NCBI RefSeq assembly: GCF_006345805.1
Contig: NW_021832836.1
Span: 1-64,000, forward strand
DNA: 64,000 nt
From: Octopus sinensis
Lineage: Eukaryota
Direction of reading: 5' to 3'
The notes under the pieces are model-generated. The model saw nothing but the letters and a program-made list of their open reading frames with translations, was not told the origin of the DNA and did not search any database. Shown piece after piece: positions 1-26,500 of this stretch. Positions within the stretch are counted from its first letter, which is position 1. Each line of letters begins with the position of its first letter. A program made the position numbers and the translations under genes.

Positions 1-3000
1 TAAAGTTTACTGATGATAAAAAGCTTATATTATCCAAGAGAACACTAAAATCTCAAAGTTTTCAGGTTAGAAAATGTTATAAAATATGTGTACTTGAAAA
101 ACAACAGAAAATTCAGTGATCTCTTAGCTAATATAATTTAACTGATTGATAAAAAGCTTATAGTTATCCAAGGAGAACAGTAGTAAATCTGAAAAGTTTT
201 CAGGTTAGAAAATGTGAAAATATTGCATATGCGTATTTGAAAAACAACAAACAATTTAATGATCTAAAAATACGTTGTACTTGAAAAACAACAAAAGATT
301 TAGTGATCACTTAGCTAAAATAAGTTAACTGATTGATAAAAAGCTTATATTTATCAAGAGAACACTAAAATCTCAAAGGTTTTCAGGTTAGAAAATATCA
401 AAATATAGCATATGCATACTTGAAAAACAACAAAAAATTTGGTGATCTCTTAGCTGAATATAAGTTAACTGATTGATAAAAAGCTTATATGTATCCAAGA
501 GAACACTAAAATCTCAAAAGTTTTCATGTTAGAAAATGTCAAAATATTGCATTTGCGTACTTGAAAAACAACAAAAATTTTAGTGATCTATTAGCTAAAT
601 ATAAGTTAACTAATTGCTAAGAAGCTTATATTTATCCAAGAGAACACTAAAATCTCAAAAGTTTTCAGGTTAGAAAATGTTAAAATATTGCATATGTGTA
701 CTTGAAAAACAACGAATAATTTAGTGATCACTTAGCTAAATATAAGTTAACTGATTGATAAAAAGCTTATATTTATCCAAGAGAACACTAAAATCTCAAA
801 AGTTTTCAGGTTAGAAAATGTCAAAATATAGCATATGCGTACTTGAAAAACAACAAAAAATTTAGTGATCTCTTAGCTGAATATAAGTTAACTGATTGAT
901 AAAAAGCTTATATATATCCAAGAGAACACTAAAATCTCAAAAGTTTTCAGGTTAGAAAATGTCAAAATATGTGTACTTGAAAAACAATAGAAAATTCAGT
1001 GATCTCTTAGCTAAATATAAGTTAACTGATTGATAAAAAGCTTATATTTATCCAAGAGAACACTAAACTCTCAAAAGTTTTCAGGTTAGAAAATGTCAAA
1101 ATATTGCATGTGTACTTGAAAAACAACGAATAATTAGTGATCACTTAGCTAAATATAAGTTAACTGATTGATAAAAGCTTATATTTATCCAAGAGAACAC
1201 TAAAATGTCAAAAGTTTTCAGGTTAGAATATGTCAAAATATGCATATGCGTACTTAAAAAACAACAAGAAATTTAGTGATCTCGTAGCTAAATATAAGTT
1301 TATGATTTTAAAAAAGCTTACTAAATACTAAAATACTAAAATCTCAAAATTTTCAGGTTAGAAAATGTCAAATATTGCATATGCGGACATGAAAAACAAC
1401 AAAATATTTAATGATCGAAATATATGTGTACTCGAAAAACAACAAAAATTTAGTGATCTATTAGCTAAATATAAGTTAACTGATGATAAAAAGCTTATAT
1501 TATCCAAGAGAACACCTAAAACTCAAAAGTTTTCAGGTTAGTAAATGTCAAAAGTTTTCAGGTTAGAAAATGTCAAAATATGTGTACTTGAAAAACAACA
1601 GAAAATTAGTGATCTCTTAGCTAAATATAAGTTTACTGATTGATAAAAAGCTTTATTTATCCAAGAGAACACTAAAATCTCAAAAGTTTTCAGGTTAGTA
1701 ATGTCAAAAAACAGTATATACATGTGTACTTGAAAAAGAATAAAAAATTTAGTGATCTCTTAGCTAAATATACGTTTATTGATTGATAAAAAGCTAATTT
1801 ATACGATAAAAAGCTTATATTTATATGTGTACTTGAAAAACAAAATATTAATGATCTAAATATATGTGTACTCGAAAAACAACAAAAATTGAGTGATCTC
1901 TTCGCTAAATATAAGTTAATTATTAATTGATAAAAAGCTTATATTATCCAAGAGGACACTAAAATCTCAAAAATTTTCAGGTTGGAAAATGTCAAAATAT
2001 GTGTACTTGAAAAACAACAGAAAATTTAGTGATCTCTTAGCTATATATAAGTTAACTGATTGATAAAAAGCTTATATTTATCCAAGAGAAAAACTAAAAT
2101 CTCAAAAGTTTTCAGGTTAGAAAATGTCAAAATATTGCATATGCGTACTTGAAAAACAACAAAAAATTTAGTGATCCCTTAGAGAAATATAAGTTAACTG
2201 ATTGATAAAAAGCTTATATTTATCCAAGAGAACACTAAACTCTCAAAAGTTTTCAGGTTAGAAAATGTCAAAATATTGCATATGCGTTCTTGAAAACAAC
2301 AAAAAATTTAGTGATCTCTGAGCTAAATATATATTAACTGATTGATAAAAAGCTTATATATATCAAGAGAACACTAAAATCTCAAAAGTTTTCAGGTTAC
2401 AAAATGTCAAAATATGTGTACTTTAGAAACAACAGAAAATTTAGTGATCTCTTAGCTAAATATAATTTAACTGATTGATAAAAAGCTTTATTTATGCAAG
2501 AGAACACTTAATCTCAAAAGTTTTCAGGTTAGAAAATGTCAAAATATTGCATATGCGTACTTGAAAAACAACAAAAATTTAGTGATCTCTTAGCTAAATA
2601 TAAGTTTATTGATTTTAAAAAGCTTATATTTATCCAAGAGAACACTAAAATCTCAAAAGTTTTCAGGTTAGAAAATGTCAAAATATGTGTCCTTGAAAAA
2701 CAACAGAAAATTTAGTGATCTCTTAGCTAAGATAAGTAAACTGATGGATAAAATGCTTATATTTATCCAAGAGAACACTAAAATCTCAAAAGTTTTCAGG
2801 TTAGAAAATGTGAAAATATGTGTACTTGAAAAACAACACAAAATTTAGTGATCTCTTAGCTAAAATAAGTTAACTGATTGATAAAAAGCTTATATTTATC
2901 CAAGAGATCACTAATATCTCAAAAGTTTTCAGAATACAAATGTCAAAATGTGTATATGTGCAATTGAAAAACAACAAAAAATTTTGTGAGCTCCTAGCAA

Positions 3001-6000
3001 AATATAAGTTAACTGATTGATAAAAGCTTATATCCAAGAGAACACTAAAATCTCAAAGGTTTTCAGGTTAGAAAATGTCAAAATATTGCATATGCGTACC
3101 TGAAAACAACAAAAAATTTAGTGATCGCTTAGCTAAATATAAGTTAACTGATTGATAAGAAGCTTATATATATTCAAGAGAACACTAAAATCTTGAAAGT
3201 TTTCAGGTTACAAAATGTCAAAATATGTGTACTTGAGAAACAACAGAAAATTTAGTGATCTATTAGCTAAATATAAGTTAACTGATTGATAAAAAGCTTA
3301 TATTTATCCAAGAGAACACTAAAATCTCAAAAGTTTTCAGGTTAGTAAAGGTCAAAATACAGCATATGTGTACTTGAAAAAGAACAAAAAATTTAGTGAT
3401 CTCTTAGCTGAATATAAGTTAACTGATGGATAAAAAGCTTATATTTATCCAAGAGAACACTAAAATCTCAAAAGTTTTCAGGTTAGAAAATGTCAAAATA
3501 TTGCATATGCGGACATGAAAAACAACAAAATATTTAATGATCTAAATATATGTGTACTCGAAAAACAACAAAAAATTTAGTGATCTATTAGCTAAATATA
3601 AGTTAACTGATTGATAAAAGGCTTATATTTATCCAAGAGAACACTAAAATCTCAAAAGTTTTCAGGTTAGAAAATGTCGAAATATGTGTACTTGAAAAAC
3701 AATAGAAAATTCAGTGATCTCTTAGCTAAATATAATTTAACTGATTGATAAAAAGCTTATAGTTATCCAAGAGAACAGTAAAATCTCAAAAGTTTTCAGG
3801 TTAGAAAATGTGAAAATATTGCATATGTGTACTTGAAAAACAACAAAAAATTTAATGATCTAAATATACGTGTACTTGAAAAACAACAAAAGATTTAGTG
3901 ATCTATTAGCTAAATGTAAGTTAACTGATTGCTAAAAAGCTTATATTTATCCAAGAGAACACTAAAATCTCAAAAGTTTTCAGGTTAGTAAATGTCAAAA
4001 TACAGCATATGTGTACTTGAAAAAGGAAAAAAAAATTTAGTGATCTAAATATACGTGTACTTGAAAAACAACAAAAGATTTAGTGATATATTAGCTAAAT
4101 ATAAGTTAACTGATTGATAAAAAGCTTATAGTTATCCAAGAGAACACTAAAATCTCAAAAGTTTTCAGGTTAGAAAATGTGAAAATATTGCATATGCGTA
4201 CTTGAAAAACAACAAAAAATTTAATGATCTAAATATACGTGTACTTGAAAAACAACAAAAGATTTAGTGATCTATTAGCTAAATATAAGTTAACTGATTG
4301 ATAAAAAGCTTATATTTATCCAAGAGAACACTTAAATCTCAAAAGTTTTCAGATTTAAATGTCAAAATATTGCATATGCGTACTTGAAAAACAACAAAAA
4401 ATTTAGTGATCTCTTAGCTAAATATAATTTAACTGATTGATAAAAAGCTTATATTTATCCTAGAGAACACTAAACTCTCAATAGTTTTCAGGTTAGAAAT
4501 TGTCAAAATATTGCATTTGCGTACTTGAAAAACAACAAAAATTTTAGTGATGTCTTAGCTAAATATAATTTAACTGATTGATAAAAAGCTTATATTTATC
4601 CAAGAGAACACTAAAATCTCAAAAGTTTTCAGGTTAGAATATGTCAAAATATTGCATATGCGTACTTAAAAAACAACAAAAAATTTAGTGATCTCTTAGC
4701 TAAATATAATTTAACTGATTGATAAAAAGCTTATATTTATCCTAGAGAACACTAAACTCTCAATAGTTTTCAGGTTAGAAATTGTCAAAATATTGCATTT
4801 GCGTACTTGAAAAACAACAAAAATTTTAGTGATCTCTTAGCTAAATATAATTTAACTGATTGATAAAAAGCTTATATTTATCCAAGAGAACACTAAAATC
4901 TCAAAAGTTTTCAGGTTAGAATATGTCAAAATATTGCATATGCGTACTTGAAAAACAACAAAAATTTAGTGATCTCTTAGCTAAATATAAGTTTATTGAT
5001 TTTTAAAAAGCTTATATTTATCCAAGAGAATACTAAAATCTCAAAAGTTTTCAGGTTAGAAAATGTCAAAATATGTGTACTTTAAAAACAACAGAAAATT
5101 TAGTGATCTCTTAGCTAAATATAAGTTAACTGATGGCTAAAAAGCTTATATTTATCCAAGAGAACACTAAAATCTCAAAAGTTTTCAGGTTAGTAAATGT
5201 CAAAATACAGCATATGTGTACTTGAAAAAGAACAAAAAATTTAGTGATCTCTTAGCTGAATATAAGTTAACTGATTCATAAAAAGCTTATATTTATCCAA
5301 GAGAACACTAAAATCTCAAAAGTTTTCAGGTTAGAAAATGTCAAAATATTGCATATGCGGACATGAAAAACAACAAAATATTTAATGATCTAAATATATG
5401 TGTACTCGAAAAACAACAAAAAATTTAGTGATCTATTAGCTAAATATAAGTTAACTGATTGATAAAAAGCTTATATTTATCCAAGAGAACACTAAACTCT
5501 CAAAAGTTTTCAGGTTAGAAAATGTCAAAATATTGCATTTGCGTACGTGAAAAACAACAAAAATATTAGTGATCTATTAGCTAAATGTAAGTTAATTGAT
5601 TGCTAAAAAGCTTATATTTATCCAAGAGAACACTAAAATCTCAAAAGTTTTCAGGTTAGAAAATGTCAAAATATGTGTACTTGAAAAACAATAGAAAATT
5701 CAGTGATCTCTTAGCTAAATATAATTTAACTGATTGATAAAATGCTTATAGTTATCCAAGAGAACAGTAAAATCTCAAAAGTTTTCAGGTTAGAAAATGT
5801 GAAAATATTGCATATGCGTACTTGAAAAACAACAAAAAATTTAATGATCTAAATATACGTGTACTTGAAAAACAACAAAAGATTTAGTGATCTATTAGCT
5901 AAATGTAAGTTAACTGATTGCTAAAAAGCTTATATTTATCCAAGAGAACACTAAAATCTCAAAAGTTTTCAGGTTAGTAAATGTCAAAATACAGCATATG

Positions 6001-9000
6001 TGTACTTGAAAAAGGAAAAAAAAATTTAGTGATCTAAATATACGTGTACTTGAAAAACATCTATTAGCTAAATATAAGTTAACTGATTGATAAAAAGCTT
6101 ATAGTTATCCAAGAGAACAGTAAAATCTCAAAAGTTTTCAGGTTAGAAAATGTGAAAATATTGCATATGCGTACTTGAAAAACAACAAAAAATTTAATGA
6201 TCTAAATATACGTGTACTTGAAAAACAACAAAAGATTTAGTGATCTATTAGCTAAATATAAGTTAACTGATTGATAGAAAGCTTTCAGGTTACAAAAGTT
6301 TTCAGATTACAAAATCTCAAAATATGTGTACTTGAGAAACAACAGAAAATTTAGTGATCTCTTAGCTAAATATAATTTAACTGATTGATAAAAAGCTTAT
6401 ATTTATCCAAGAGAACAGTAAAATCTCAAAAGTTTTCAGGTTAGAAAATGTGAAAATATTGCATATGCGTACTTGAAAAACAACAAAAATTTAATGATCT
6501 AATATACGTGTACTTGAAAAACAACAAAAGATTTAATGATCTATTAGCTAAATATAAGTTAACTGATTGATAAAAGCTTATATTTATCGAAAGAACACTA
6601 AAATCTCAAAAGTTTTCAGGTTAGAAAATGTCAAAATATTGCATATGTGTACTTGAAAAACAACGAATAATTTAGTGATCACTTAGCTAAATATAAGTTA
6701 ACTGATTGATAAAAAGCTTATATTTATCCAAGAGAACAGTAAAATCTCAAAAGTTTTCAGGTTAGAAAATGTCAAAATATGTGTACTTGAAAAACAACAG
6801 AAAATTTAGTGATCTCTTAGCTAAATATAAGTTAACTGATTGACAAAAAGCTTATATTTATCCAAGAGATCACTAATATCTTAAAAGTTTTCAGGTTAGT
6901 AAATGTCAAAATACAGCATATGTGTACTTGAAAAAGAACAAAAAATTTAATGATCTAAATATATGTGTACTTGAAAAACAACGAATAATTTAGTGATCAC
7001 TTAGCTAAATATAAGTTTACTGATTGATAAAAAGCTTATATTAATCCAAGAGAACACTAAAATCTCAAAAGTTTTCAGGTTAGAAAATGTTAAAATATGT
7101 GTACTTGAAAAACAATAGAAAATTCAGTGATCTCTTAGCTAAATATAATTTAACTGATTGATAAAAAGCTTATAGTTATCCAAGAGAACAGTAAAATCTG
7201 AAAAGTTTTCAGGTTAGAAAATGTGAAAATATTGCATATGCGTATTTGAAAAACAACAAAAAATTTAATGATCTAAAAATACGTGTACTTGAAAAACAAC
7301 AAAAGATTTAGTGATCTATTAGCTAAATATAAGTTAACTGATTGATAAAAAGCTTATGTTTATCCAAGAGAACACTAAAATCTCAAAAGTTTTCAGGTTA
7401 GAAAATGTCAAAATACAGCATATGCGTACTTGAAAAACAACAAAAAATTTAGTGATCACTTAGCTAAATATAAGTTAACTGATTGATAAAAAGCTTATAT
7501 TTATCCAAGAGAACACTAAAATCTCATAAGTTTTCAGGTTAGAAAATATCAAAATATAGCATATGCATACTTGAAAAACAACAAAAAATTTGGTGATCTC
7601 TTAGCTGAATATAAGTTAACTGATTGATAAAAAGCTTATATGTATCCAAGAGAACACTAAAATCTCAAAAGTTTTCAGGTTAGAAAATGTCAAAATATGT
7701 GTACTTTAAAAACAACAGAAAATTTAGTGATCTCTTAGCTAAATATAAGTTAACTGATGGATAAAAAGCTTATATTTATCCAAGAGAACACTAAAATCTC
7801 AAAAGTTTTCAGGTTAGTAAATGTCAAAATACAGCATATGTGTACTTGAAAAAGGAAAAAAAAATTTAGTGATCTCTTAGCTGAATATAAGTTAACTGAT
7901 TGATAAAAAGCTTATATGTATCCAAGAGAACACTAAAATCTCAAAAGTTTTCAGGTTAGTAAATGTCAAAATATTGCATATGCGGACATGAAAAACAACA
8001 AAATATTTAATGATCTAATTATATGTGTACTCGAAAAACAACAAAAAATTTAGTGATCTATTAGCTAAATATAATTTAACTGATTGATAAAAAGCTTATA
8101 GTTATCCAAGAGAACAGTAAAATCTCAAAAGTTTTCAGGTTAGAAAATGTGAAAATATTGCATATGCGTACTTGAAAAACAACAAAAAATTTAATGATCT
8201 AAATATACGTGTACTTGAAAAACAACAAAAGATTTAGTGATCTATTAGCTAAATATGAGTTAACTGATTGATAAAAAGCTTTCAGGTTACAAAAGTTTTC
8301 AGGTTACAAAATGTCAAAATATGTGTACTTGAGAAACAACAGAAAATTTAGTGATCTCTTAGCTAAATATAATTTAACTGATTGATAAAAAGCTTATATT
8401 TATCCAAGAGAACACTTAAATCTCAAAAGTTTTCAGGTTAGAAAATGTCAAAATATTGCATATGCGTACTTGAAAAACAACAAAAAATTTAGTGATCTCT
8501 TAGCTGAATGTAAGTTAACTGATTGATAAAAAGCTTATATAAATCCAAGAGAACACTAAAATCTCAAAAGTTTTCAGGTTAGAAAATGTCAAAATATTGA
8601 ATTCGCGTACTTGAAAAACAACAAAAAATTTAGTGATCTCTTAGCTAAATATAAGTTAACTGATTGACAAAAAGCTTATATTTATCCAAGAGATCACTAA
8701 TATCTTAAAAGTTTTCAGGTTAGTAAATGTCAAAATACAGCATATGTGTACTTGAAAAAGAACAAAAAATTTAATGATCTAAATATATGTGTACTTGAAA
8801 AACAACGAATAATTTAGTGATCACTTAGCTAAATATAAGTTTACTGATTGATAAAAAGCTTATATTAATCCAAGAGAACACTAAAATCTCAAAAGTTTTC
8901 AGGTTAGAAAATGTTAAAATATGTGTACTTGAAAAACAATAGAAAATTCAGTGATCTCTTAGCTAAATATAATTTAACTGATTGATAAAAAGCTTATAGT

Positions 9001-9488
9001 TATCCAAGAGAACAGTAAAATCTGAAAAGTTTTCAGGTTAGAAAATGTGAAAATATTGCATATGCGTATTTGAAAAACAACAAAAATTTAATGATCTAAA
9101 AATACGTGTACTTGAAATACAACAAAAGATTTAGTGATCTATTAGCTAAATATAAGTTAACTGATTGATAAAAAGCTTATGTTTATCCAAGAGAACACTA
9201 AAATCTCAAAAGTTTTCAGGTTAGAAAATGTCAAAATACAGCATATGCGTACTTGAAAAACAAAACAAAAATTTAGTGATCACTTAGCTAAATATAAGTT
9301 AACTGATTGATAAAAAGCTTATATTTATCCAAGAGAACACTAAAATCTCATAAGTTTTCAGGTTAGAAAATATCAAAATATAGCATATGCATACTTGAAA
9401 AACAACAAAAAATTTGGTGATCTCTTAGCTGAATATAAGTTAACTGATTGATAAAAAGCTTATATGTATCCAAGAGAACACTAAAATC

Positions 9489-9760
9489 GGGCACGTTTGG
9501 GCGGCGGAGCAAAGGGCGAGCGCGCTAGCCGCAGTTTGCCATCTTTCGGGTTTTTACGGGACGGACCGCGTCGCCGTATCGACGGCGTGCATCTCGTGAA
9601 CGCCCTTCCGACATCGGTGGCGGCTACGTCCACGCGTCCGTGGGCCGTACCGCGAGCGTGGGTTCGTTCTTTCGGTTTCGGGTACGGTAGCGCGGCGGAG
9701 GAACGGGCGACAGGCGCGGGCCTGCCGCCAACGGCCCCGCGGCTCGCGGACGAACGGGAG
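9489..9760. other. 272-bp GC-rich, CpG-rich foreign insert replacing 28 bp of a satellite monomer
   Basis: Hand count gives 189/272 G+C (~70%) inside a very AT-rich array. The flanks ctaaaatc|...|aaatatgtgtactttaaaaa match the sister monomer at ~7656-7710, which has tcaaaagttttcaggttagaaaatgtca at this position. No target-site duplication. Confidence 0.95.
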
Positions 9761-12700
9761 AAATATGTGTACTTTAAAAACAACAGAAAATTTAGTGATC
9801 TCTTAGCTAAATATAAGTTAACTGATGGAAAGAAAGCTTATATTTATCCAAGAGAACACTAAAATCTCAAAAGTTTTCAGGTTAGTAAATGTCAAAATAC
9901 AGCATATGTGTACTTGAAAAAGGAAAAAAAAATTTAGTGATCTCTTAGCTGAATATAAGTTAACTGATTGATAAAAAGCTTATATGTATCCAAGAGAACA
10001 CTAAAATCTCAAAAGTTTTCAGGTTAGTAAATGTCAAAATATTGCATATGCGGACATGAAAAACAACAAAATATTTAATGATCTAATTATATGTGTACTC
10101 GAAAAACAACAAAAAATTTAGTGATCTTAGCTAAATATAATTTAACTGATTGATAAAAAGCTTATAGTTATCCAAGAGAACAGTAAAATCTCAAAAGTTT
10201 TCAGGTTAGAAAATGTGAAAATATTGCATCGTACTTGAAAAACAACAAAAATTTAATGATCTAAATATACGTGTACTTGAAAAACAACAAAAGATTTAGT
10301 GATCTATTAGCTAAATATAAGTTAACTGATTGATAAAAAGCTTTCAGGTTACAAAAGTTTTCAGGTTACAAAATGTCAAAATATGTGTACTTGAGAAACA
10401 ACAGAAAATTTAGTGATCTCTTAGCTAAATATAATTTAACTGATTGATAAAAAGCTTATATAAATCCAAGAGAACACTAAAATCTCAAAAGTTTTCAGGT
10501 TAGAAAATGTCAAAATATTGAATTCGCGTACTTGAAAAACAACAAAAAATTAGTGATCTATTAGCTAAATGTAAGTTAACTGATTGCTAAAAAGCTTATA
10601 TTTATCCAAGAGAACACTAAAATCTCAAAAGTTTTCAGGTTAGAAAATGTCAAAATATTGCATTTGCGTACTTGAAAAACAACAAAAAATTTAGTGATCT
10701 CTTAGCTAAAGATAAGTTAACTGATGGATAAAAAGCTTATATTTATCCAAGAGAACTAAAATCTCAAAGTTTTCAGGTTAGAAAATGTCAAAATATTGCA
10801 TATGCGTACTTGAAAAACAACAAAAAATATTTATGATGTAAATAACGTGTACTTGAAAAACAAAAAAATTTATGATCTATTAGCTAATATAAGTTAATGA
10901 TGATAAAAAGCTCATATTTATCGAAGAGAACACTAAAATCTCAAAAGTTTTCAGGTTAGAAAATGTCAAAATATTGCATATGTGTACTTGAAAAACAACA
11001 AAAATTTAGTGATCACTAGCTAAATATAAGTTACTGATTGATAAAAAGCTTATATTTATCCAAGAGAACACTAAAATCTCAAAAGTTTTCAGGTTAGAAA
11101 ATGTCAAAAAACAGTATATATGTGTACTTGAAAAAGAATAAAAAATTTAGTGACCTCTTAGCTAAAAAAGATACGTTTATTGATTGATAAAAAGCTTATA
11201 TTTATACGATAACAAGCTAAAATTATATGTGTAATTGAAAAACAACAAAAAAGTTAGCTCATATTATCGAAGAGAACACTAAAATCTCAAAAGTTTTCAG
11301 GTTAAAAAAATGTCAAAATATTTATATGTGTACTTGAAAACAACAAAAATTTAGTGATCACTTAGCTAAATATAAGTTAACTGATTGATAAAAAGCTTAT
11401 ATTTATCCAAGAGAACACTAAAATCTCAAAAGTTTTCAGGTTAGAAAATGTCAAAATATTGCATTTGCGTACTTGAAAAACAACAAAAAATTTAGTGATC
11501 TATTAGCTAAATGTAAGTTAACTGATTGCTAAAAAGCTTTTATTTATCCAAGAGAACACTAAAATCTCAAAAGTTTTCAGGTTACAAAATGTCAAAGTAT
11601 GTGTACTTGAAACACAACAGAATATTTAGTGATCTCTTAGCAAAATATAATTTAACTGATTGATAAAAAGCTCATATATATCCAAGAGAACACTAAAATC
11701 TCAAAGGTTTTCAGGTTAGAAAATGTCAAAATATTGCATATGCGTACTTGAAAACAACAAAAAATTTAGTGATCGCTTAGCTAAATATAAGTTTATTGAT
11801 TGATAAAAAGCTTATATTTATCCCAGAGGACACTAAAATCTCAAAAATTTTCTGGTTAGAAAATGTCAAAATATGTGTACTTGAAAAACAACAGAAAATT
11901 TAGTGATCTCTTAGCTATATATAAGTTAACTGATTGATAAAAAGCTTATATTTATCCAAGAGAAAAACTAAAATCTCAAAAGTTTTCAGGTTAGAAAATG
12001 TCAAAATATTGCATATGCGTACTTGAAAAACAACAAAAAATTTAGTGATCCCTTAGCAAAATATAAGTTAAGTGATTGATAAAAAGTTTATATTTATCCA
12101 AGAGAACACTAAACTCTCAAAAGTTTTCAGGTTAGAAAATGTCAAAATATTGCATTTGCGTACTTGAAAAAAAACAAAAATTTTAGTGATCTATTAGCTA
12201 AATGTAAGTTAACTGATTACTAAAAAGCATATTTTATCCAAGAGAACACTAAAATCTCAAAAGTTTTCAGGTTAGAAAATGTCAAAATATGTGTACTTGA
12301 AAAACAATAGAAAATTCAGTGATCTCTTAGCTAAATATAATTTAACTGATTGATAAAAAGCTTATAGTTATCCAAGAGAACAGTAAAATCTCAAAAGTTT
12401 TCAGGTTAGAAAATGTGAAAATATTGCATATGCGTACTTGAAAAACAACAAAAACTTTAATGATCTAAATATACGTGTACTTGAAAAACAACAAAAGATC
12501 TAATGATCTATTAGCTAAATATAAGTTAACTGATTGATAAAAAGCTTATATTTATCGAATAGAACACTAAAATCTCAAAAGTTTTCAGGTTAGAAAATGT
12601 CAAAATATTGCATATGTGTACTTGAAAAACAACGAATAATTTAGTGATCACTTAGCTAAATATAAGTTAACTGATTGATAAAAAGCTTATATTTATCCAA

Positions 12701-15700
12701 GAGAACAGTAAAATCTCAAAAGTTTTCAGGTTAGAAAATGTCAAAATATGTGTACTTGAAAAACAACAGAAAATTTAGTGATCTCTTAGCTAAATATAAG
12801 TTAACTGATTGACAAAAAGCTTATATTTATCCAAGAGATCACTAATATCTCAAAAGTTTTCAGGTTAGAAAATGTCAAAATGTTGCATATGCGTACTTGA
12901 AAAACAAAAAATTTAGTCATCTCTTAGCTGAATATAAGTTAACTGATTGATAAAAAGCTTATATTTATCCAAGAGAACACTAAAATCTTAAAAGTTTTCA
13001 GGTTAGTAAATGTCAAAATACAGCATATGTGTACTTGAAAAAGAACAAAAAATTTAATGATCTAAATATATGTGTACTTGAAAAACAACGAATAATTTAG
13101 TGATCACTTAGCTAAATATAAGTTTACTGATTGATAAAAAGCTTATATTAATCCAAATGAACACTAAAATCTCAAAAGTTTTCAGGTTAGAAAATGTTAA
13201 AATATGTATACTTGAAAAACAATAGAAAATTCAGTGATCTCTTAGTTAATATAATTTAACTGATTGATAAAAAGCTTATAGTTATCCAAGAGAACAGTAA
13301 AATCTCAAAAGTTTTCAGGTTAGAAAATGTGAAAATATTGCATATGCGTATTTGAAAAACAACAAAAAATTTAATGATCTAAATATACGTGTACTTGAAA
13401 AACAACAAAAGATTTAGTGATCTATTAGCTAAATATAAGTTAACTGATTGATAAAAAGCTTATGTTATCCAAGAGAACACTAAAATCAAAAAGTTTTCAG
13501 GTTAGAAAATGTCAAAATACAGCATATGCGACTGAAAAACAACAAAAAATTTAGTGATCACTTAGCTAAATATAAGTTAACTGATTGATAAAAAGCTTAT
13601 ATTTATCCAAGAGAACACTAAAATCTCAAAGTTTTCAGGTAGAAATTGTCAAAATATAGCATTGCGTACTTGAAAAACAACAAAAAATTTGTGATCTCTT
13701 AGCTGAATATAAGTTAACTGATTGATAAAAAGCTTATATGTATCCAAGAGAACACTAAAATCAAAAGTTTTCATGTTAGAAAATGTCAAAATATTGCATT
13801 GCGTACTTGAAAAACAACAAAAATTTAGTGATCTATTAGCTAAATATAAGTTAACTATTGATAAAAAGCTTATATTTATCCAAGAGAACACTAAAATCTC
13901 AAAAGTTTTCAGGTTAGAAAATGTTAAAATATTGCATATGTGTACTTGAAAAACAACGAAAAATTTAGTGATCACTTAGCTAAATATAAGTTAACTGATT
14001 GTATAAAAAGCTTATATTTATCCAAGAGAACACTAAAATCTCAAAAGTTTTCAGGTTAGAAAATGTCAAAATATAGCATATGCGTACTTGAAAAACAACA
14101 AAAAATTTAGTGATCACTTAGCTAAATATAAGTTAACTGATTGATAAAAAGCTTATTTATCCAAGAGAACACTAAAATCTCAAAAGTTTTCAGGTTAGAA
14201 AATGTCAAAATATGCATATGCGTACTTGAAAAACAACAAAAAATTTAGTGATCTCTTAGCTGAATATAAGTTAACTGATTGATAAAAGCTTATATATATC
14301 CAAGAGAACACTAAAATCTCAAAAGTTTTCAGGTTAGAAATGTCAAAATATGTGTACTTGAAAAACAATAGAAATTTAGTGATCTCTTAGCTAAATATAA
14401 GTTAACTGATTGATAAAAAGCTTATATTTATCCAAGAGAACACTAAAATGTCAAAAGTTTTCAGGTTAGAATATGTCAAAATATTGCATATGCGTACTTA
14501 AAAAACAACAAAAAATTTAGTGATCTCTTAGCTAAATATAAGTTTATTGATTTTAAAAAAGCTTACTAAATACTAAAATACTAAAATCTCAAAATTTTCA
14601 GGTTAGAAAATGTCAAAATATTGCATATGCGGACATGAAAAACAACAAAATATTTAATGATCTAAATATATGTGTACTCGAAAAACAACAAAAAATTTAG
14701 TGATCTATTAGCTAAATATAAGTTAACTGATTGATAAAAAGCTTATATTTATCCAAGAGAACACTAAAATCTCAAAAGTTTTCAGGTTAGAAAATGTCAA
14801 AAGTTTTCAGGTTAGAAAATGTCAAAAGTTTTCAGGTTAGAAAATGTCAAAATATGTGTACTTGAAAAACAACAGAAAATTTAGTGATCTCTTAGCTAAA
14901 TATAAGTTTACTGATTGATAAAAAGCTTATATTTATCCAAGAGAACACTAAAATCTCAAAAGTTTTCAGGTTAGTAAATGTCAAAAAACAGTATACATGT
15001 GTACTTGAAAAAGAATAAAAAATTTAGTGATCTCTTAGCTAAATATACGTTTATTGATTGATAAAAAGCTTATATTTATACGATAAAAAGCTTATATTTA
15101 TATGTGTACTTGAAAAACAAAATATTTAATGATCTAAATATATGTGTACTCGAAAAACAACAAAAAATTGAGTGATCTCTTCGCTAAATATAAGTTTATT
15201 AATTGATAAAAAGCTTATATTTATCCAAGAGGACACTAAAATCTCAAAAATTTTCAGGTTGGAAAATGTCAATATATGTGTACTTGAAAAACAACAGAAA
15301 ATTTAGTGATCTCTTAGCTATATATAAGTTAACTGATTGATAAAAAGCTTATATTTATCCAAGAGAAAAACTAAAATCTCAAAAGTTTTCAGGTTAGAAA
15401 ATGTCAAAATATTGCATATGCGTACTTGAAAAACAACAAAAAATTTAGTGATCCCTTAGAAAAAATATAAGTTAACTGATTGATAAAAAGCTTATATTTA
15501 TCCAAGAGAACACTAAACTCTCAAAAGTTTTCAGGTTAGAAAATGTCAAAATATTGCATATGCGTTCTTGAAAACAACAAAAAATTTAGTGATCTCTGAG
15601 CTAAATATATATTAACTGATTGATAAAAAGCTTATATATATTCAAGAGAACACTAAAATCTCAAAAGTTTTCAGGTTACAAAATGTCAAAATATGTGTAC

Positions 15701-18409
15701 TTTAGAAACAACAGAAAATTTAGTGATCTCTTAGCTAAATATAATTTAACTGATTGATAAAAAGCTTATATTTATGCAAGAGAACACTTAAATCTCAAAA
15801 GTTTTCAGGTTAGAAAATGTCAAAATATTGCATATGCGTACTTGAAAAACAACAAAAAATTTAGTGATCTCTTAGCTAAATATAAGTTTATTGATTTTTA
15901 AAAAGCTTATATTTATCCAAGAGAACACTAAAATCTCAAAAGTTTTCAGGTTAGAAAATGTCAAAATATGTGTCCTTGAAAAACAACAGAAAATTTAGTG
16001 ATCTCTTAGCTAGATATAAGTTAACTGATGGATAAAATGCTTATATTTATCCAAGAGAACACTAAAATCTCAAAAGTTTTCAGGTTAGAAAATGTGAAAA
16101 TATGTGTACTTGAAAAACAACAGAAAATTTAGTGATCTCTTAGCTAAATATAAGTTAACTGATTGATAAAAAGCTTATATTTATCCAAGAGATCACTAAT
16201 ATCTCAAAAGTTTTCAGAATACAAAATGTCAAAATATTGTATATGTGCACTTGAAAAACAACAAAAAATTTTGTGAGCTCCTAGCAAAATATAAGTTAAC
16301 TGATTGATAAAAAGCTTATATCCAAGAGAACACTAAAATCTCAAAGGTTTTCAGGTTAGAAAATGTCAAAATATTGCATATGCGTACCTGAAAACAACAA
16401 AAAATTTAGTGATCGCTTAGCTAAATATAAGTTAACTGATTGATAAGAAGCTTATATATATTCAAGAGAACACTAAAATCTTGAAAGTTTTCAGGTTACA
16501 AAATGTCAAAATATGTGTACTTGAGAAACAACAGAAAATTTAGTGATCTATTAGCTAAATATAAGTTAACTGATTGATAAAAAGCTTATATTTATCCAAG
16601 AGAACACTAAAATCTCAAAAGTTTTCAGGTTAGTAAAGGTCAAAATACAGCATATGTGTACTTGAAAAAGAACAAAAAATTTAGTGATCTCTTAGCTGAA
16701 TATAAGTTAACTGATGGATAAAAAGCTTATCCAAGAGAACACTAAAATCTCAAAAGTTTTCAGGTTAGAAAATGTCAAAATACAGCATATGTGTACTTGA
16801 AAAACAACAAAAAATTTAGTGATCTCTTAGCTAAATATAAGTTAACTGATTGATAAAAAGCTTATATTTATCCAAGAGAACATTAAAATCTCAAAGGTTT
16901 TCAGTTTAGAAAATGTCAAAATATTGCATATGTGTAATTGAGAAACAACAGAAAATTTAGTGATCTCTTAGCTAAATATAAGTTAACTGATTGATTAAAA
17001 GCTTATATTTATCCAAGAGAACACTAAAATCTCAAAAGTTTTCAGGTTAGAAAATGTCAAAATATTGCATATGTGTACTTGAAAAACAACAAAAAATTTA
17101 TCCAAGAGAACACTAAAATCTCAAAAGTTTTCAGGTTAGTAAATGTCAAAATACAGCATATGTGTACTTGAAAAACAACAAAACATTTAGTGATCTATTA
17201 GCTAAATATAAGTTAACTGATTGATTAATAGCTTATATTTATCCATGAGAACACTAAAATCTCAAAAGTTTTCAGGTTAGAAAATGTCAAAATATTGCAT
17301 ATGTGTACTTGAAAAACAACAAAAAATTTAGTGATCTCTTAGCTAAATATAAGATACCCGATTGATAAAAAGCTTATATTTATCCAAGAGAACACTAAAA
17401 TCTCAAAAGTTTTCAGGTTAGAAAATGTCAAAATACAGCATATGTGTACTTGAAAAACAACAAAAAATTTAGTGATCTCTCAGCTAAATATAAGTTTATT
17501 GATTGATAAAATGCTTATATTTATCCAAGAGTACACTAAAATCTCAAAAGTTTTCAGGTTAGAAAATGTCAAAATATTGCATATGTGTACTTGAAAAACA
17601 ACAAAAAATTTAGTGATCTCTTCGCTAAATATAAGTTAACTGATTGATAAAAAGCTTATATTTATCCAAGAGAACACTAAAATCTCAAAAGCTTTCATGT
17701 TACAAAATGTCAAAATATTGCATATGTGTACTTGAGAAACAACAGAAAATTTAGTGATCTCTTAGCTAAATATAAGTTAACTGATGGATAAAAAGCTTAT
17801 CCAAGAGAACACTAAAATCTCAAAGGTTTTCAGTTTAGAAAATGTCAAAATCTTGTATATGTGTAATTGAGAAACAACAGAAAATTTAGTGATCTTTTAG
17901 CTAAATATAAGTTAACTGATTGATTAAAAGCTTATATTTATCCAAGAGAACACTAAAATCTCAAAAGTTTTCAGGTTAGAAAATGTCAAAATATTGCATA
18001 TGTGTACTTGAAAAACAACAAAAAATTTAGTGATCTATTAGCTAAATATAAGTTAACTGATTGATTAATAGCTTATATTTATCCATGAGAACACTAAAAT
18101 CTCAAAAGTTTTCAGGTTATCAAATGTCAAAATATTGCATATGTGTACTTGAGAAACAACAGAAAATTTAGTGATCTCTTAGCTAAATATAAGTTAACTG
18201 ATTGATAAAAAGCTTATCTTTATCCAAGAGAACACTAAAATCTCAAAAGTTTTCAGGTTAGAAAATGTCAAAATATTGCATATGTGTACTTGAAAAACAA
18301 CAAAAAATTTAGTGATCTCTTAGCTAAATATAAGTTAACTGATTGATAAAAAGCTTATATTTATCCAAGAGAACATTAAAATCTCAAAGGTTTTCAGTTT
18401 AGAAAATGT

Positions 18410-18783
18410 CAAAATATTGTATATGAGTACTTGAGAAACAACAGAAAATTTAGTGATCTCTTAGCTTAATATAAGATAACTGATTGATTAAAAGCTTATA
18501 TTTATCCAAGAGAACACTAAAATCTCAAAAGTTTTCAGGTTAGAAAATGTCAAAATATTGCATAAGTGTACTTGAGAAACAACAATTTAGTGATCTCTTG
18601 ATCACTAATTTTTGTTGTTTCTCAGTACACATATGCAATATTTTGACATTTTCTAACCTGAAAACTTTTGAGATTTTAGTGTTCTCTTGGATAAATATAA
18701 GCTTTTAATCAATCAGTTAACTTATATTTAGCTAAGAGATCACTAAATTTTCTGTTGTTTCTCAATTACACATATACAATATA
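18410..18783. repeat. Fold-back palindrome of satellite DNA (~185-bp arms, 4-nt loop), copy 1
   Basis: ttagtgatc-tctt-gatcactaa is centred at 18596-18599, and 18600-18783 is reverse-complement satellite. Confidence 0.93.
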
Positions 18784-19316
18784 CAGTCAGTAAACCTAAA
18801 ATCACATTTGTTTTTTTACTTTTTTATGCCTATTTGCAACTTTTGTGATTTTTGTGATCTCTTTGGTAAATAAGTTACTGATATTATAGTTATGTAAGAG
18901 ATCATTAAAATTTTAATAGTTTTCAGAAAACAAATGTGTCAATTATTGTAAATAAGCATAAAAAAATGAACAAAATTGCTAATTCAAATTTGTTGAATTT
19001 TAGTACTTATTGCAATATTTTGATACTTTGTTTTCTGAGAACAAATAAGTACTAAAAAGCAACAAATTTGAATTAATAATTCTATTTACTTTTTTATGCT
19101 TCTCTGCTATATTTTGACACATTTTGTTTTCTGAAGAGGATTTTGACTTGAGTGTTATCTTGGCTGCTCAATTAGCAACGTTGTTCGCTTTTTTATGCCT
19201 ATTTGCAAATTTTTGCACATTTTGTTATCTGTTGGATAAATATAATATTATTAGTCAGTTAACTTATATTTTACCACAGAGATTACTGAAATCACAAAAT
19301 CACAAATAAGCCTAAA
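18784..19316 (+). repeat. Ectopic copy of the flanking macro-repeat segment 36991-37528, copy 1
   Basis: cagtcagtaaacctaaaatcacatttg...cacaaataagcctaaa is near-identical to 36991-37528. The ORF track shows nearly the same 61-aa ORF at 19124 and 37336. Confidence 0.93.
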
Positions 19317-19689
19317 TTTAGTGATCTATTAGCTAAATATAAGTTAACTGATTGATAAAAAGCTTATATTTATCCAAGAGAACACAAAATCTCAAAAGTT
19401 TTCAGGTTAGTAAAGGTCAAAATACAGCATATGTGACTTGAAAAAGACAAAAAATTTAGTGATCTCTTAGCTGAATATAAGTTAACTGATGGATAAAAAG
19501 CTTATCCAAGAGAACACTAAAATCTCAAAAGTTTTCAGGTTAGAAAATGTCAAAATACAGCATATGTGTACTTGAAAAACAACAAAAATTTAGTGATCTC
19601 TTAGCTAAATATAAGTTAACTGATTGATAAAAAGCTTATATTTATCCAAGAGAACACTAAAATCTCAAGGTTTTTCACGTTAGAAAATG

Positions 19690-20065
19690 TCAAAATATTG
19701 TATATGAGTACTTGAGAAACAACAGAAAATTTAGTGATCTCTTAGCTTAATATAAGATAACTGATTGATTAAAAGCTTATATTTATCCAAGAGAACACTA
19801 AAATCTCAAAAGTTTTCAGGTTAGAAAATGTCAAAAATTGCATAAGTGTACTTGAGAAACAACAAAAATTTAGTGATCTCTTGATCACTAAATTTTTGTT
19901 GTTTCTCAAGTACACATATGCAATATTTTGACATTTTCTAACCTGAAAACTTTTGAGATTTTAGTGTCTCTTGGATAAATATAAGCTTTTAATCAATCAG
20001 TTAACTTATATTTAGCTAAGAGATCACTAAATTTCTGTTGTTCTCAATTACACATATACAATATA
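19690..20065. repeat. Fold-back palindrome of satellite DNA, copy 2
   Basis: aaatttagtgatc-tctt-gatcactaaattt with loop at 19879-19882, 1283 bp after copy 1. Confidence 0.93.
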
Positions 20066-20595
20066 CAGTCAGTAAACCTAAAATCACATTTGTTTTTTTA
20101 CTTTTTTATGCCTATTTGCAACTTTTGTGATTTTTGTGATCTCTTTGGTAAATATAAGTTAACTGATATTATAGTTATGTAAGAGATCATAAAATTTTAA
20201 TAGTTTTCAGAAAACAAAATGTGTCAAATTATTGTAAATAAGCATAAAAAAATGAACAAAATTGCTAATTCAAATTGTTGAATTAGTACTTATTTGCAAT
20301 ATTTTGATACTGTTTCTGAGAACAAATAAGTACTAAAAAGCAACAAATTTGAATTAATAATCTATTTACTTTTTTATGCTTCTCTGCTATATTTTGACAC
20401 ATTTTGTTTTCTGAGAGGATTTTGACTTGAGTGTTATCTTGGCTGCTCAATTAGCAACGTTGTTCGCTTTTTTATGCCTATTTGCAAATTTTTGCACATT
20501 TTGTTATCTGTTGGATAAATATAATATTATTAGTCAGTTAACTTATATTTTACCACAGAGATTACTGAAATCACAAAATCACAAATAAGCCTAAA
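20066..20595 (+). repeat. Ectopic copy of macro-repeat segment 36991-37528, copy 2
   Basis: Same sequence and same junctions (caatatacagtcag; aagcctaaatttagtg) as 18784-19316. Confidence 0.92.
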
Positions 20596-23500
20596 TTTAG
20601 TGATCTATTAGCTAAATATAAGTTAACTGATTGATAAAAAGCTTATATTTATCCAAGAGAACACTAAAATCTCAAAAGTTTTCAGGTTAGTAAAGGTCAA
20701 AATACAGCATATGTGTACTTGAAAAAGAACAAAAAATTTAGTGATCTCTTAGCTGAATATAAGTTAACTGATGGATAAAAAGCTTATCCAAGAGAACACT
20801 AAAATCTCAAAAGTTTTCAGGTTAGAAAATGTCAAAATACAGCATATGTGTACTTGAAAAACAACAAAAAATTTAGTGATCTCTTAGCTAAATATAAGTT
20901 AACTGATTGATAAAAAGCTTATATTTATCCAAGAGAACACTAAAATCTCAAAGGTTTTCACGTTAGAAAATGTCAAAATACAGCATATGTGTACTTGAAA
21001 AACATCAAAAAATTTAGTGATCTATTATCTAAATATAAGTTAACTGATTGATAAAAAGCTTATATTTATCCAAGAGAACACTAAAATCTCAAAAGTTTTC
21101 AGGTTAGAAAATGTCAAAATATTGCATATGTGTACTTGAAAAACAACAAAAAATTTAGTGATCTCTTAGCTAAATATAAGTTAACTGATTGATAAAAAGA
21201 TTATATTTATCCAAGAGCACACTAAAATCTCAAAAGCTTTCAGGTTAGAAAATGTCAAAATATTGCATATGTGTACTTGAGAAACAACAGAAAATTTAGT
21301 GATCTCTTAGCTTAATATAAGATAACTGATTGATAAAAAGCTTATATTTATCCAAGAGAACACTAAAATCTCAAAAGTTTTCAGGTTAGAAAATGTCAAA
21401 ATACAGCATATGTGTACTTGAAAAACAACAAAAAATTTAGTGATCTCTTAGCTAAATATAAATTAACTGATTGATTAAAAGCTTATATTTATCCAAGAGA
21501 ACACTATAATCTCAAAAGTTTTCAGGTTAGAAAATGTCAAAATATTGCATATGTGTACTTGAAAAACAACAAAAAATTTAGTGATCTATTAGCTACATAT
21601 AAGTTAACTGATTGATAAAAAGCTTATATTTATCCAAGAGAACACTAAAATCTCAAAAGCTTTCAGGTTAGAAAATGTCAAAATATTGCATATGTGTACT
21701 TGAAAAACAACAAAAAATTTAGTGATCTCTTAGCTAAATAAGTTAACTGATTAAATTTAGTGATCTCTTAGCTACATATATGTTAACTGATTGATGAAAA
21801 GCTTATATTATCCAAGAGGACACTAAAATCTCAAAAGTTTTCAGGTTAGAAAATGTCAAAATATTGCATATGTACTTGAAAAACCACAAAAAATTTAGTG
21901 ATCTCTTCACTAATATAAGTTAACTGATTGATAAAAAGCTTATATTTATCCAAGAGAACACTAAACTCTCAAAAGTTTTCAGGTTAGAAAATGTCAAAAT
22001 ATTGCATATGCGTTCTTGAAAACAACAAAAAATTAGTGATCTCTGAGCTATATATGTAACTGATTGATAAAAAGCTTATATATATTCAAGAGAACACTAA
22101 AATCTCAAAAGTTTTCAGGTTACAAAATGTCAAAATATGTGTACTTGAGAAACAACAGAAAATTTAGTGATCTCTTAACTAAATATAATTTAACTGATTG
22201 ATAAAAAGCTTATATTTATCCAAGAGAACACTTAAATCTCAAAAGTTTTCAGGTTAGAAAATGTCAAAATATGTGTCCTTGAAAAACAACAGAAAATTTA
22301 GTGATCTCTTAGCTAGATATAAGTTCACTGATGGATAAAATGCTTATATTTATCCAAGAGAACACTAAAATCTCAAAAGTTTTCAGGTTAGAAAATGTGA
22401 AAATATGTGTACTTGAAAAACAACAGAAAATTTAGTGATCTCTTAGCTAAATATAAGTTAACTGATTGACAAAAAGCTTATATTTTTCCAAGAGATCACT
22501 AATATCTCAAAAGTTTTCAGAATACAAAATGTCAAAATATTGTATATGTGCACTTGAAAAACAACAAAAAATTCTGTGAGCTCCTAGCAAAATATAAGTT
22601 AACTGATTGATAAAAAGCTTATATCCAAGAGAACGCTAAAATCTCAAAGGTTTTCAGGTTAGAAAATGTCAAAATATTGCATATGCGTACCTGAAAACAA
22701 CAAAAAATTTAGTGATCGCTTAGCTAAATATAAGTTAACTGATTGATAAGAAGCTTATATATTCAAGAGAACACTAAAATCTCGAAAGTTTTCAGGTTAC
22801 AAAATGTCAAAATATGTGTACTTGAGAAACAACAGAAAATTTAGTGATCTATTAGCTAAATATAAGTTAACTGATTGATAAAAAGCTTATATTTATCCAA
22901 GAGAACACTAAAATCTCAAAAGTTTTCAGGTTAGTAAAGGTCAAAATACAGCATATGTGTACTTGAAAAAGAACAAAAAATTTAGTGATCCCTTAGCTGA
23001 ATATAAGTTAACTGATGGATAAAAAGCTTATCCAAGAGAACACTAAAATCTCAAAAGTTTTCAGGTTAGAAAATGTCAAAATATTGCATATGTGTACTTG
23101 AAAAACAACAAAAAATTTAGTGATCTCTTAGCTAAATATAAGTTAACTGATTGATTAATAGCTTATATTTATCCAAGAGAACACTAAAATCTCAAAAGTT
23201 TTCAGGTTAGAAAATGTCAAAATATTGCATAAGTGTACTTGAAAAACAACAAAAAATTTAGTGATCTCTTAGCTAAATATAAGATAACTGATTGATAAAA
23301 AGCTTATATTTATCCAAGAGAACACTAAAATCTCAAAGGTTTTCACGTTAGAAAATGTCAAAATACAGCATATGTGTACTTGAAAAACATCAAAAAATTT
23401 AGTGATCTATTATCTAAATATAAGTTAACTGATTGATAAAAAGCTTATATTTATCCAAGAGAACACTATAATCTCAAAAGTTTTCAGGTTAGAAAATGTC

Positions 23501-26500
23501 AAAATATTGCATGTGTACTTGAAAAACAACAAAAAATTTAGTGATCTATTAGCTACATATAAGTTAACTGATTGATAAAAAGCTTATATTTATCCAAGAG
23601 AACATTAAAATCTCAAAAGCTTTCAGGTTAGAAAATGTCAAAATATTGCAAATGCGTACTTGAAATACAACAAAAAATTTAGTGATCTCTTTGCTAAATA
23701 TAAGTTAACTGATTGATAAAAAGCTTATATTTATCCAAGAGATCACTAAAATCTCAAAAGTTTTCAGGTTAGAAAATGTCAAAATACAGCATATGTGTAC
23801 TTGAAAAACAACAACAAATTTAGTGATCTCTTCGCTAAATATAAGTTAACTGATTGATAAAAAGCTTATATTTATCCAAGAGAACACTAAAATCTCAAAA
23901 GCTTTCAGGTTAGAAAATGTCAAAATATTGCATATGTGTACTTGAAAAACAACAAAAAATTTAGTGATCTCTTAGCTAAATATAAGTTAACTGATTGATA
24001 AATTTAGTGATCTCTTAGCTACATATATGTTAACTGATTGATAAAAGCTTATATTTATCCAAGAGGACACTAAAATCTCAAAAGTTTTCAGGTTAGAAAA
24101 TGTCAAAATATTGCATATGTGTACTTGAAAAACAACAAAAAATTTAGTGATCTCTTCACTAAATATAAGTTAACTGATTGATAAAAAGCTTATATTTATC
24201 CAAGAGCACACTAAAATCTCAAAAGCTTTCAGGTTAGAAAATGTCAAAATATTGCATATGTGTACTTGAGAAACAACAGAAAATTTAGTGATCTCTTAGC
24301 TAATATAAGATAACTGATTGATAAAAGCTTATATTTATCCAAGAGAACACTAAATCTCAAAAGTTTTCAGGTTAGAAAATGTCAAAATACAGCATATGTG
24401 TACTTGAAAAACCAAAAAATTTAGTGATCTCTTAGCTAAATATAATTAACTGATTGATTAAAAGCTTATATTTATCCAAGAGAACACTATAATCTCAAAA
24501 GTTTTCAGGTTAGAAAATGTCAAAATATTGCATATGTGTACTTGAAAAACAACAAAAAATTTAGTGATCTCATTAGCTAATATAAGTTAACTGATTGATA
24601 AAAGCTTATATTTATCCAAGAACACTAAAATCTCAAAAGTTTTCAGGTTAGAAAATGTCAAAATATTGCATATGTACTTGAAAAACAACAAAAAATTTAG
24701 TGATCTCTTCTAATATAAGTAACTGATTGATATTTAGTGATCTCTAGCTAACATATATGTTAACTGATTGATAAAAAGCTTATATTTATCCAAGAGAACA
24801 CTAAAATCTCAAAAGTTTTCAGGTTAGAAAATGTCAAAATATTGCATATGTGTACTTGAAAAACAACAAAAAATTTAGTGATCTCTTCACTAAATATAAG
24901 TTAGATTGATAAAAAGCTTATATATATTCAAGAGAACACTAAAATCTCAAAAGTTTTCAGGTTAGAAAATGTCAAAATATTATGTGTACTTGAAAAACAA
25001 CAAAAATTTAGTGATCTCTTAGCAAATAAATAGTTTAACTGATTGATAAAAGCTTATATTTATCCAAGAGAACACTTAAATCTCAAAAGTTTTCAGGTTA
25101 GAAAATGTCAAAATATTGCATATGCGTACTTGAAAAACAACAAAAAATTTAGTGATCTCTTAGCTAAATATAAGTTAACTGATTGATAAAAGCTTATATT
25201 TATCCAAGAGAACACTAAAATCTCAAAGTTTTCAGGTTAGAAATGTCAAAATATTGCATATGTGTACTTGAAAAACAACAAAAATTTAGTGATCTCTTAG
25301 CTAAATATAAGTTAACTGATTGATAAAAAGCTTATATTTATCCAAGAGAACACTAAAATCTCAAAAGTTTCAGGTTAGAAAATGTCAAAATATGTGTACT
25401 TGAAAAACAACAAAAATTTAGTGATCTCTTTATATAAGTTAACTGATTGATAAAAAGCTTATATTTTTCCAAGAGTTCACTAATTTCTCAAAAGTTTTCA
25501 GTAGATAGGAACAAAATCCAAAATTTGTTGTCAAAATATTGTATAGTGCCTTGAAAACACAAAAAATCTTAGAACGCTAAAAGAGATACGCTTAAATCTC
25601 AAAAGTTTTCAGGTTAGAAAATGTCAATATTGCATATGTGTACTTGAAAACACAAAAATTTAGTGATCTCTTAGCTAAATATAAGTTAACTGATTGATAA
25701 GAAGCTTATATAAATTCAAGAGAACACTAAAATCTCAAAAGTTTTCAGTTAGAAAATGTCAAAATATGTGTACTTGAAAAACAACAAAAAATTTAGTGAT
25801 CTCTTAGCTAATATAAGTTAACTGATTGATAAAAAGCTTATATTTATCCAAGAGAACACTAAAATCTCAAAAGTTTTCAGGTTAGAAAATGTCAAAATAC
25901 AGCATATGTGTACTTGAAAAAACAAAAATTTAGTGATCTCTTAGCTAAATATAAGTTAACTGATTGATAAAAAGCTTATATCCAAGAGAACACTAAAATC
26001 TCAAAGTTTTCAGGTTAGAAAATGTCAAAATATTGCATATGTGTACTTGAAAACAACAAAAAATTTAGTGATCTCTAGCTAAATATAAGTTAACTGATTG
26101 ATAAATAGCTTATATTTATATCCAGAGAACACTAAAATCTCAAAGTTTTCAGGTTAGAAAATGTCAAAATATTGCATAGTGTGTACTTGAAAAACAAAAA
26201 AAAATTTAGTGATCTCTTAGCTAATATAAGTTAACTGATTGATAAAAAGCTTATATTTATCCAAGAGAACACTAAAATCTCAAAGTTTTCAGGTTAGAAA
26301 ATGTCAAAATATTGCATGTGTACTTGAAAAACAACAAAAAATTTAGTGATCTTTATCTAAATATAAGTTAACTGATTGATAAAAAGCTTATATTTATCCA
26401 AGAGAACACTAAAATCTCAAAAGTTTTCAGGTTAGAAAATGTCAAAATACACATATGTGTACTTGAAAAACAACAAAAAATTTAGTGATCTCTTAGCTAA

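What the first reader, a model, noticed from the sequence alone, without database searches (positions are those of the whole stretch)
9489..9760. Solitary 272-bp ~70% GC structured island swapped into a satellite monomer
Seen: the only non-satellite-derived sequence in 36 kb of array. It replaces exactly 28 bp (tcaaaagttttcaggttagaaaatgtca) that are intact in the sister higher-order copy ~1.82 kb upstream, so it postdates that duplication or is an assembly artefact. It has no TSD, TIR or poly-A and retains many CpGs. Many stems are possible: cgccgt/acggcg 9572-9587, ccacg/cgtgg 9630-9643, gtacc/ggtac 9647-9685, caggc/gcctg 9711-9724, ccgcg/cgcgg 9737-9749, and long-range aagggcg 9512-9518/cgccctt 9601-9607, tggcggc 9618-9624/gccgcca 9724-9730, gttcgt 9662-9667/acgaac 9750-9755. 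Established: deletion plus insertion without TSD is typical of DNA capture during end-joining repair. Inference: the donor could be an rDNA spacer or expansion segment, another structured RNA, or foreign (microbial/viral) DNA. High GC alone produces some short stems, and a low-quality long-read segment is a serious alternative.
Basis: partly seen in the sequence, partly recalled or inferred. Interest (0 to 1): 0.75.

Follow-up and report, generated by a model that had tools for sequence, protein, structure and literature searches.

The report
Ribosomal-spacer scrap pasted into satellite DNA
A 272-base piece of the host's own ribosomal-DNA spacer sits inside an unrelated AT-rich satellite, where it was likely pasted in recently during repair of a DNA break; it folds no better than shuffled sequence and is likely ordinary genomic debris rather than a new RNA or foreign DNA.

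Summary
The island is real as described: 272 bp, 69.5% GC, replacing 28 bp of a satellite monomer. It is neither foreign nor a structured RNA. It is 270/272 identical to a subrepeat of the host's rDNA intergenic spacer, between the 28S end and 18S. Folding z is -0.16/+0.34 and Rfam has no hit at threshold. Junctions show 2-bp and 3-bp microhomology, a deletion and no target duplication, which fits capture of a distant fragment at a break. Both junctions recur exactly twice on a second scaffold, 13.0 kb apart, and a short-read contig bridges the left junction. Whether the 13-kb copies are real amplification or redundant assembly is open. At least 13 other small spacer scraps are scattered in the genome; 4 begin at a putative spacer promoter, one with an 11-bp duplication, so an RNA route exists as a rival. 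The scan noted other rDNA debris in this genome before, not this piece. Verdict: new member of a known kind, low interest.

The parts
9489..9760 (-). 272-bp fragment of the rDNA intergenic spacer (about 1.4 copies of a ~190-bp subrepeat); the minus strand is the rRNA-sense strand; begins about 120 bases downstream of a putative spacer-promoter motif and does not include it
   Evidence: 270/272 identical to a copy in L013; 35 full-length copies at 91.7-99.3% in 28 fetched loci; copies lie between 28S 3' end and 18S in L019/L020; internal repeat at offset 191
9487..9488 (+). left-junction microhomology TC, shared by satellite and donor
   Evidence: junction exact in 3 assembled places; bridged by contig 13 of run X3, 9440-9526, depth 442.9
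9761..9763 (+). right-junction microhomology AAA, shared by satellite and donor
   Evidence: junction exact in 3 assembled places
7665..7692 (+). the 28 bp lost at the insertion site, intact here in the sister higher-order copy
6585..10500 (+). two tandem ~1.82-kb higher-order satellite units, the second carrying the insert
   Evidence: blastn 97.8% and 98.4%; 5 clean substitutions in 1,736 columns
277..36763 (+). AT-rich (25% GC) 141-bp satellite array, the host of the insert; unrelated to rDNA
   Evidence: no match of the monomer to 28 rDNA loci or to the spacer's own 141-bp repeat

Best explanation
The island is a 272-bp copy of the host's own rDNA intergenic-spacer subrepeat, likely captured at a double-strand break in the satellite by end joining or template switching on 2-3 bp of microhomology, with loss of 28 bp, and it is likely inert. 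Shown: donor identity, position in the spacer, junction letters, deletion, lack of target duplication, and the order 1.82-kb duplication then insertion. Inferred: a break in the monomer, a spacer DNA fragment or strand as donor, and recent age (insert 99.3% like its best donor; sister units differ by 0.2-0.3%). Open: whether a later 13-kb duplication then copied it along with the array.
For: Donor: 39 near-full-length matches at 93-100% in the genome, 36 of them outside the satellite; in C3 the copies lie between LSU 3' part (L019 4280-5688) and SSU (L020 3730-6374), and C8 shows the same order. Best donor differs at 2 of 272 positions. Junctions: microhomology 2 and 3 bp; in 200,000 random pairings of spacer and satellite positions the summed microhomology reached 5 in 1.4% and 2+3 or better in 0.7%. 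Size and junction type match distant templated insertions, mostly ~50-300 bp with 0-20 nt microhomology (bioRxiv 10.1101/2024.03.07.583931, passages). Reality: both junctions exact in 3 assembled places with different indel errors; left junction bridged by 49+38 letters in a contig of run X3. Not special: 13 other small (87-497 bp) spacer scraps among 32 loci examined. No promoter motif, no Pfam match for the one open 90-aa frame tested, no folding signal.
Against: Microhomologies of 2 and 3 bp are a single event with P about 0.01 and cannot name the pathway. An RNA route is active for this spacer elsewhere: 4 of 13 small scraps start within 4 bases of the putative spacer start (expected 0.49; 3 of 12, P=0.010, after dropping the scrap that suggested the test) and 2 of 13 have 8-11 bp duplications, so a 5'-truncated cDNA donor is not excluded. 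Run X3 may be the sample behind the assembly, so its contig is not independent of it. The three assembled copies may be one or two loci.
Confidence: 0.75

Rival explanations
1. RNA-templated capture: a transcript from an rDNA spacer promoter was reverse-transcribed (by a LINE or R2-type enzyme) and the truncated cDNA patched the break.
For: The piece lies +120 to +391 downstream of a repeated TATA-like motif that also occurs once 1.6 kb before 18S, the layout of spacer promoters (PMC3036644 passages; promoter role inferred, not tested). 4 of 13 other small scraps begin at that motif, one (L065) with an 11-bp target duplication. An R2-like tail abuts the 28S target in several loci.
Against: This insert has no duplication, no tail, does not start at the motif, and deletes 28 bp. 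9 of 13 scraps begin upstream of the motif, so DNA capture is the commoner route. The AT-rich motif could attract breaks or microhomology without any RNA. The satellite is no better a match to the 28S R2 site than shuffles (200 of 300 reach it).
Confidence: 0.15
2. Assembly or library artefact: a chimeric long read or mis-join put rDNA spacer into the satellite.
For: The three copies sit on small unplaced scaffolds with many indel errors (75-122 gaps per 6.7 kb). The window's first 19 kb overlaps the end of C1317, so copies are not fully independent.
Against: A chimera would have to leave and rejoin the same monomer 28 bp apart. Junctions are letter-identical in 3 places. A 90-nt short-read contig of depth 442.9 crosses the left junction. 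The insert carries a private base (T at 9498) absent from all 28 fetched rDNA loci and shared by all 3 copies.
Confidence: 0.07
3. A functional structured RNA or foreign (microbial, viral) element hosted by the satellite.
For: High GC, CpG-rich, many short stems.
Against: All three features are those of the donor spacer; folding and stem counts equal shuffles; no Rfam hit at threshold (the only weak hit inside the insert has E=7.8); host donor at 99.3%.
Confidence: 0.02

Closest known systems
Dispersed rDNA-derived fragments and pseudogenes (Robicheau et al. 2017, PMC5381670; abstract and first part of Discussion read)
   Same: rDNA pieces including intergenic spacer lie far from arrays, from short strings to whole units; spacer content is taken as a sign of a DNA route.
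   Different: Those are old and degraded; this one is 99.3% intact, has readable junctions and an uninserted sister copy, and lies inside a satellite monomer.
[quoted passage not shown]
   Same: Size ~50-300 bp, 0-20 nt microhomology, distant nuclear donor, no target duplication.
   Different: Described at induced breaks in yeast and human cells; here a naturally inherited event, enzymes unknown. The paper says polymerase theta alone makes mostly <=30-nt inserts, so this is not a typical theta insertion.
Intergenic-spacer-derived satellites (tomato, Jo et al. 2009, PMC2679016; abstract only)
   Same: Spacer subrepeat sequence found in satellite DNA outside canonical rDNA units.
   Different: There the spacer subrepeat itself is amplified into the satellite; here the monomer is unrelated and the spacer piece is a one-off passenger in at most a few higher-order units.
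Nuclear insertions of organelle DNA (NUMT-type capture; recalled, and listed as captured DNA)
   Same: Foreign-looking fragment joined at a break with short microhomology and small deletion.
   Different: Donor is nuclear rDNA spacer.

Membership tests
Dispersed rDNA-spacer fragment | Near identity to sequence between 28S 3' end and 18S of the host rDNA unit | tested here: met
Dispersed rDNA-spacer fragment | Lies outside an rDNA unit | tested here: met
   No Rfam hit in the window; only 9487-9763 matches the rDNA unit
Distant templated insertion at a break | About 50-300 bp from a distant locus | tested here: met
   272 bp; satellite monomer absent from 28 rDNA loci
Distant templated insertion at a break | Short junction microhomology, target deletion, no duplication | tested here: met
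   2 and 3 bp, 28-bp loss; null 0.7-1.4%
Distant templated insertion at a break | Dependence on end-joining or template-switch enzymes | not testable with these tools
   needs genetics
Polymerase-theta templated insertion | Short (about 30 nt or less), local donor | tested here: not met
   272 bp, distant donor; size range
Retroposed copy (target-primed reverse transcription) | Target-site duplication | tested here: not met
   28-bp deletion instead
Retroposed copy (target-primed reverse transcription) | 3' tail, or 5' end at the transcript start | tested here: not met
   No tail; starts about 120 bases after the putative start
Structured non-coding RNA | Folding better than dinucleotide shuffles | tested here: not met
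   z -0.16 and +0.34; stem counts
Structured non-coding RNA | Match to a curated RNA family | tested here: not met
Structured non-coding RNA | Covarying base pairs across diverged homologs | not tested
   only within-genome spacer copies were in hand
Spacer-derived satellite | Satellite monomer homologous to the spacer subrepeat | tested here: not met

The most novel reading that the evidence does not exclude
Spacer-promoter RNAs of this genome's rDNA are reverse-copied into new sites as a recurrent process, and this piece is one such copy caught while a satellite's 13-kb higher-order repeat is multiplying it: the first step by which rDNA spacer (possibly enhancer-like) sequence spreads through an unrelated satellite.
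Probability: 0.1. Interest if true: 0.5.

Novelty: new member of a known kind. Interest (0 to 1): 0.2.

Why it matters
As it stands it is a clean, datable natural example of a satellite array being patched with rDNA spacer, with the pre-insertion state preserved 1.8 kb away. The insert is also a unique tag in an otherwise unmappable array: it could be used to count higher-order copies and follow array turnover between individuals. It does not change what is known about repair or rDNA dispersal. The side result, that some spacer scraps start exactly at a repeated promoter-like motif, would matter more if confirmed, because it would map spacer promoters and show an RNA route for non-coding rDNA dispersal.

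Tried and rejected
Structured RNA: rejected. Coding piece: the one frame open across the insert gave no Pfam match; other frames were only translated. Foreign DNA: rejected. Break caused by R2 at a look-alike site: satellite vs 28S target scored no better than shuffles. Kinship of the 141-bp satellite with the spacer's 141-bp repeat: none (299-300 of 300 shuffles reach the score). rDNA next to this satellite: no monomer match in 28 loci. Right junction in public contigs: no listed piece crossed it in 4 of 4 runs (X3, X1, X9, X8), and no listed piece crossed the left junction in X1, X9, X10 (table cut to 8 or fewer pieces a run); the tool states that such holes prove nothing, so presence in other individuals or species is unknown. 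No RNA holder listed. Single-copy depth of X3 was not measured, so depth 442.9 gives no copy number. The control pattern for truncations gave 0 hits against 4 (3 true truncations) at the motif, one control only. Two Rfam calls failed internally. Six paper searches listed no report of a spacer fragment inside an unrelated satellite or of this spacer; the library lacks most subscription papers, and no supplements were read. PMC8794474 and PMC9241439 (passages) gave only general background.

Full report
Observation. The window holds a 141-bp, 25% GC satellite from about 277 to 36,763. At 9489-9760 a 272-bp, 69.5% GC stretch replaces 28 bp that are intact at 7665-7692 in the sister higher-order unit 1,824 bp upstream. 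Rfam has no hit at threshold in the window; the only weak hit inside the insert has E=7.8.

Donor. A search of the own genome gave 136 matches from 40 of 257 candidates scored; 39 are near full length, 36 of them outside the satellite, on many chromosome-scale contigs. In contig C3 the copies lie between the 3' part of 28S and the start of 18S, followed by 5.8S and 28S; C8 has the same order. The donor is therefore the rDNA intergenic spacer, and the window's plus strand is antisense to rRNA. Among 35 full-length copies in 28 fetched loci, identity is 91.7-99.3%, best 270/272. The high GC and CpG (o/e 1.51) are simply the spacer's. The spacer has ~190-bp subrepeats grouped in 0.85-1.25-kb units; each unit has a TATA-like motif, with a variant 1.6 kb before 18S. 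I read these as spacer and gene promoters by analogy with arthropod spacers (PMC3036644 passages; PMC1215480 start of abstract); this is not tested. The insert begins about 120 bases after the motif and lacks it, so it would not bring a promoter.

Junctions and mechanism. Satellite and donor share TC at the left and AAA at the right junction, with no added letters, no duplication and no tail. Random pairings reach a summed microhomology of 5 in 1.4% of 200,000 trials: suggestive, one event only. Size and junctions fit distant templated insertions at breaks, mostly ~50-300 bp with 0-20 nt microhomology; the same source says polymerase theta alone gives mostly 30 nt or less (bioRxiv 10.1101/2024.03.07.583931, passages). 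I therefore commit to capture of spacer DNA at a break by end joining or template switching, without naming the enzyme. Dispersed rDNA including spacer is known in human (PMC5381670, abstract and part of Discussion).

Reality and age. Both junction 19-mers occur exactly three times in the assembly: once here and twice on scaffold C1317, 13.0 kb apart. All three share one base not seen in the 28 rDNA loci, pointing to one event. A 90-nt contig of run X3 crosses the left junction with 49 and 38 letters on the two sides at depth 442.9; X3 may be the source sample. Each inserted unit has an uninserted sister 1.8 kb upstream differing by 3-5 clean substitutions in about 1,730 columns, so the insertion followed a very recent duplication. 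The three copies differ by 3, 7 and 12 clean substitutions in 6.7 kb, with 75-122 gaps typical of read error, and the window's start is collinear with the end of C1317. So the window copy is probably C1317's second copy, and the 13-kb pair is either a very young duplication or redundant assembly; I could not tell which.

Context and the RNA rival. An 18-mer just after the motif has 88 exact hits. Of 32 loci examined around such hits, 19 were blocks over 1 kb and were set aside; 13 were scraps of 87-497 bp in ordinary DNA. Four of the 13 start within 4 bases of the motif (expected 0.49); without the scrap that prompted the test, 3 of 12, P=0.010. Two have 8- and 11-bp duplications at their ends. 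This hints that spacer transcripts are sometimes retro-copied, although an AT-rich motif could also attract breaks. The window's insert shows none of these marks, so the RNA route stays a rival at 0.15.

Comparison and verdict. It works like a captured-fragment insertion and is a member of the dispersed rDNA-spacer fragments. It fails membership of structured RNAs, retroposed copies, theta-type insertions and spacer-derived satellites (PMC2679016, abstract). Earlier notes of this scan describe other rDNA debris in this genome and call the host an octopus (not tested here); none covers this sequence. My searches listed no paper on such an insert, within a library that misses most subscription journals. 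New member of a known kind; interest 0.2.

Noticed in passing
L065:2482-2710 (G000:C2:~193,119,490), also L067, L072, L026: Small spacer scraps that begin at the putative spacer start; L065 is flanked by an 11-bp duplication, the mark of a retro-copy.
   Followed up: partly
L067, L069, L072, L081, L093: 5 of 13 small scraps end at +68 to +87 from the same anchor, in different flanks; L081 and L093 have nearly the same two ends. Could be a short spacer RNA, a break hotspot or a limit of my reference.
   Followed up: no
G000 C3, C10, C11, C28, C11589 (L019:2639-4168 and others): Dispersed rDNA pieces of 2.5-17 kb on many contigs; five begin exactly at the 28S site that I recall as the R2 target, after a non-rDNA tail; in C3 the tail has a 340-aa open frame with a weak zf-RVT match below cutoff.
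   Followed up: partly
L019:6230-6460: A degenerate duplicate of the 28S region around that target lies in the spacer just after 28S, next to a 141-bp tandem repeat (seen by eye).
   Followed up: no
G000:C18:17,514,956-17,525,041 (L083, L084): Seven spacer units in tandem at 1.68-kb spacing, longer than in other loci.
   Followed up: no
L020:3730-6374: 18S gene spans 2,645 bases against a model of 1,831, GC-rich with long expansions.
   Followed up: no
G000:C19:22.204-22.221 Mb (L058, L032, L057): Two partial rDNA units in inverted orientation with scrambled 18S/ITS pieces.
   Followed up: no
window 18600-19290 and 19883-20569: Fold-back inversion of the satellite followed by diverged AT-rich sequence, duplicated 1.28 kb apart; related sequence fills 36,764-42,100.
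   Followed up: no
window, each monomer (e.g. 9791-9863): The 141-bp monomer has an imperfect ~73-bp internal palindrome that gives weak microRNA-like Rfam scores far below threshold.
   Followed up: no
window 42348-43091 and 48441-48888: 186-bp (2.7 copies) and 26-bp (17 copies) GC-richer tandem repeats followed by a shared tail, one ending in (GAT)9; looks like a short interspersed element.
   Followed up: no
window 49539-59629: About 10 kb of degenerate TA repeat.
   Followed up: no
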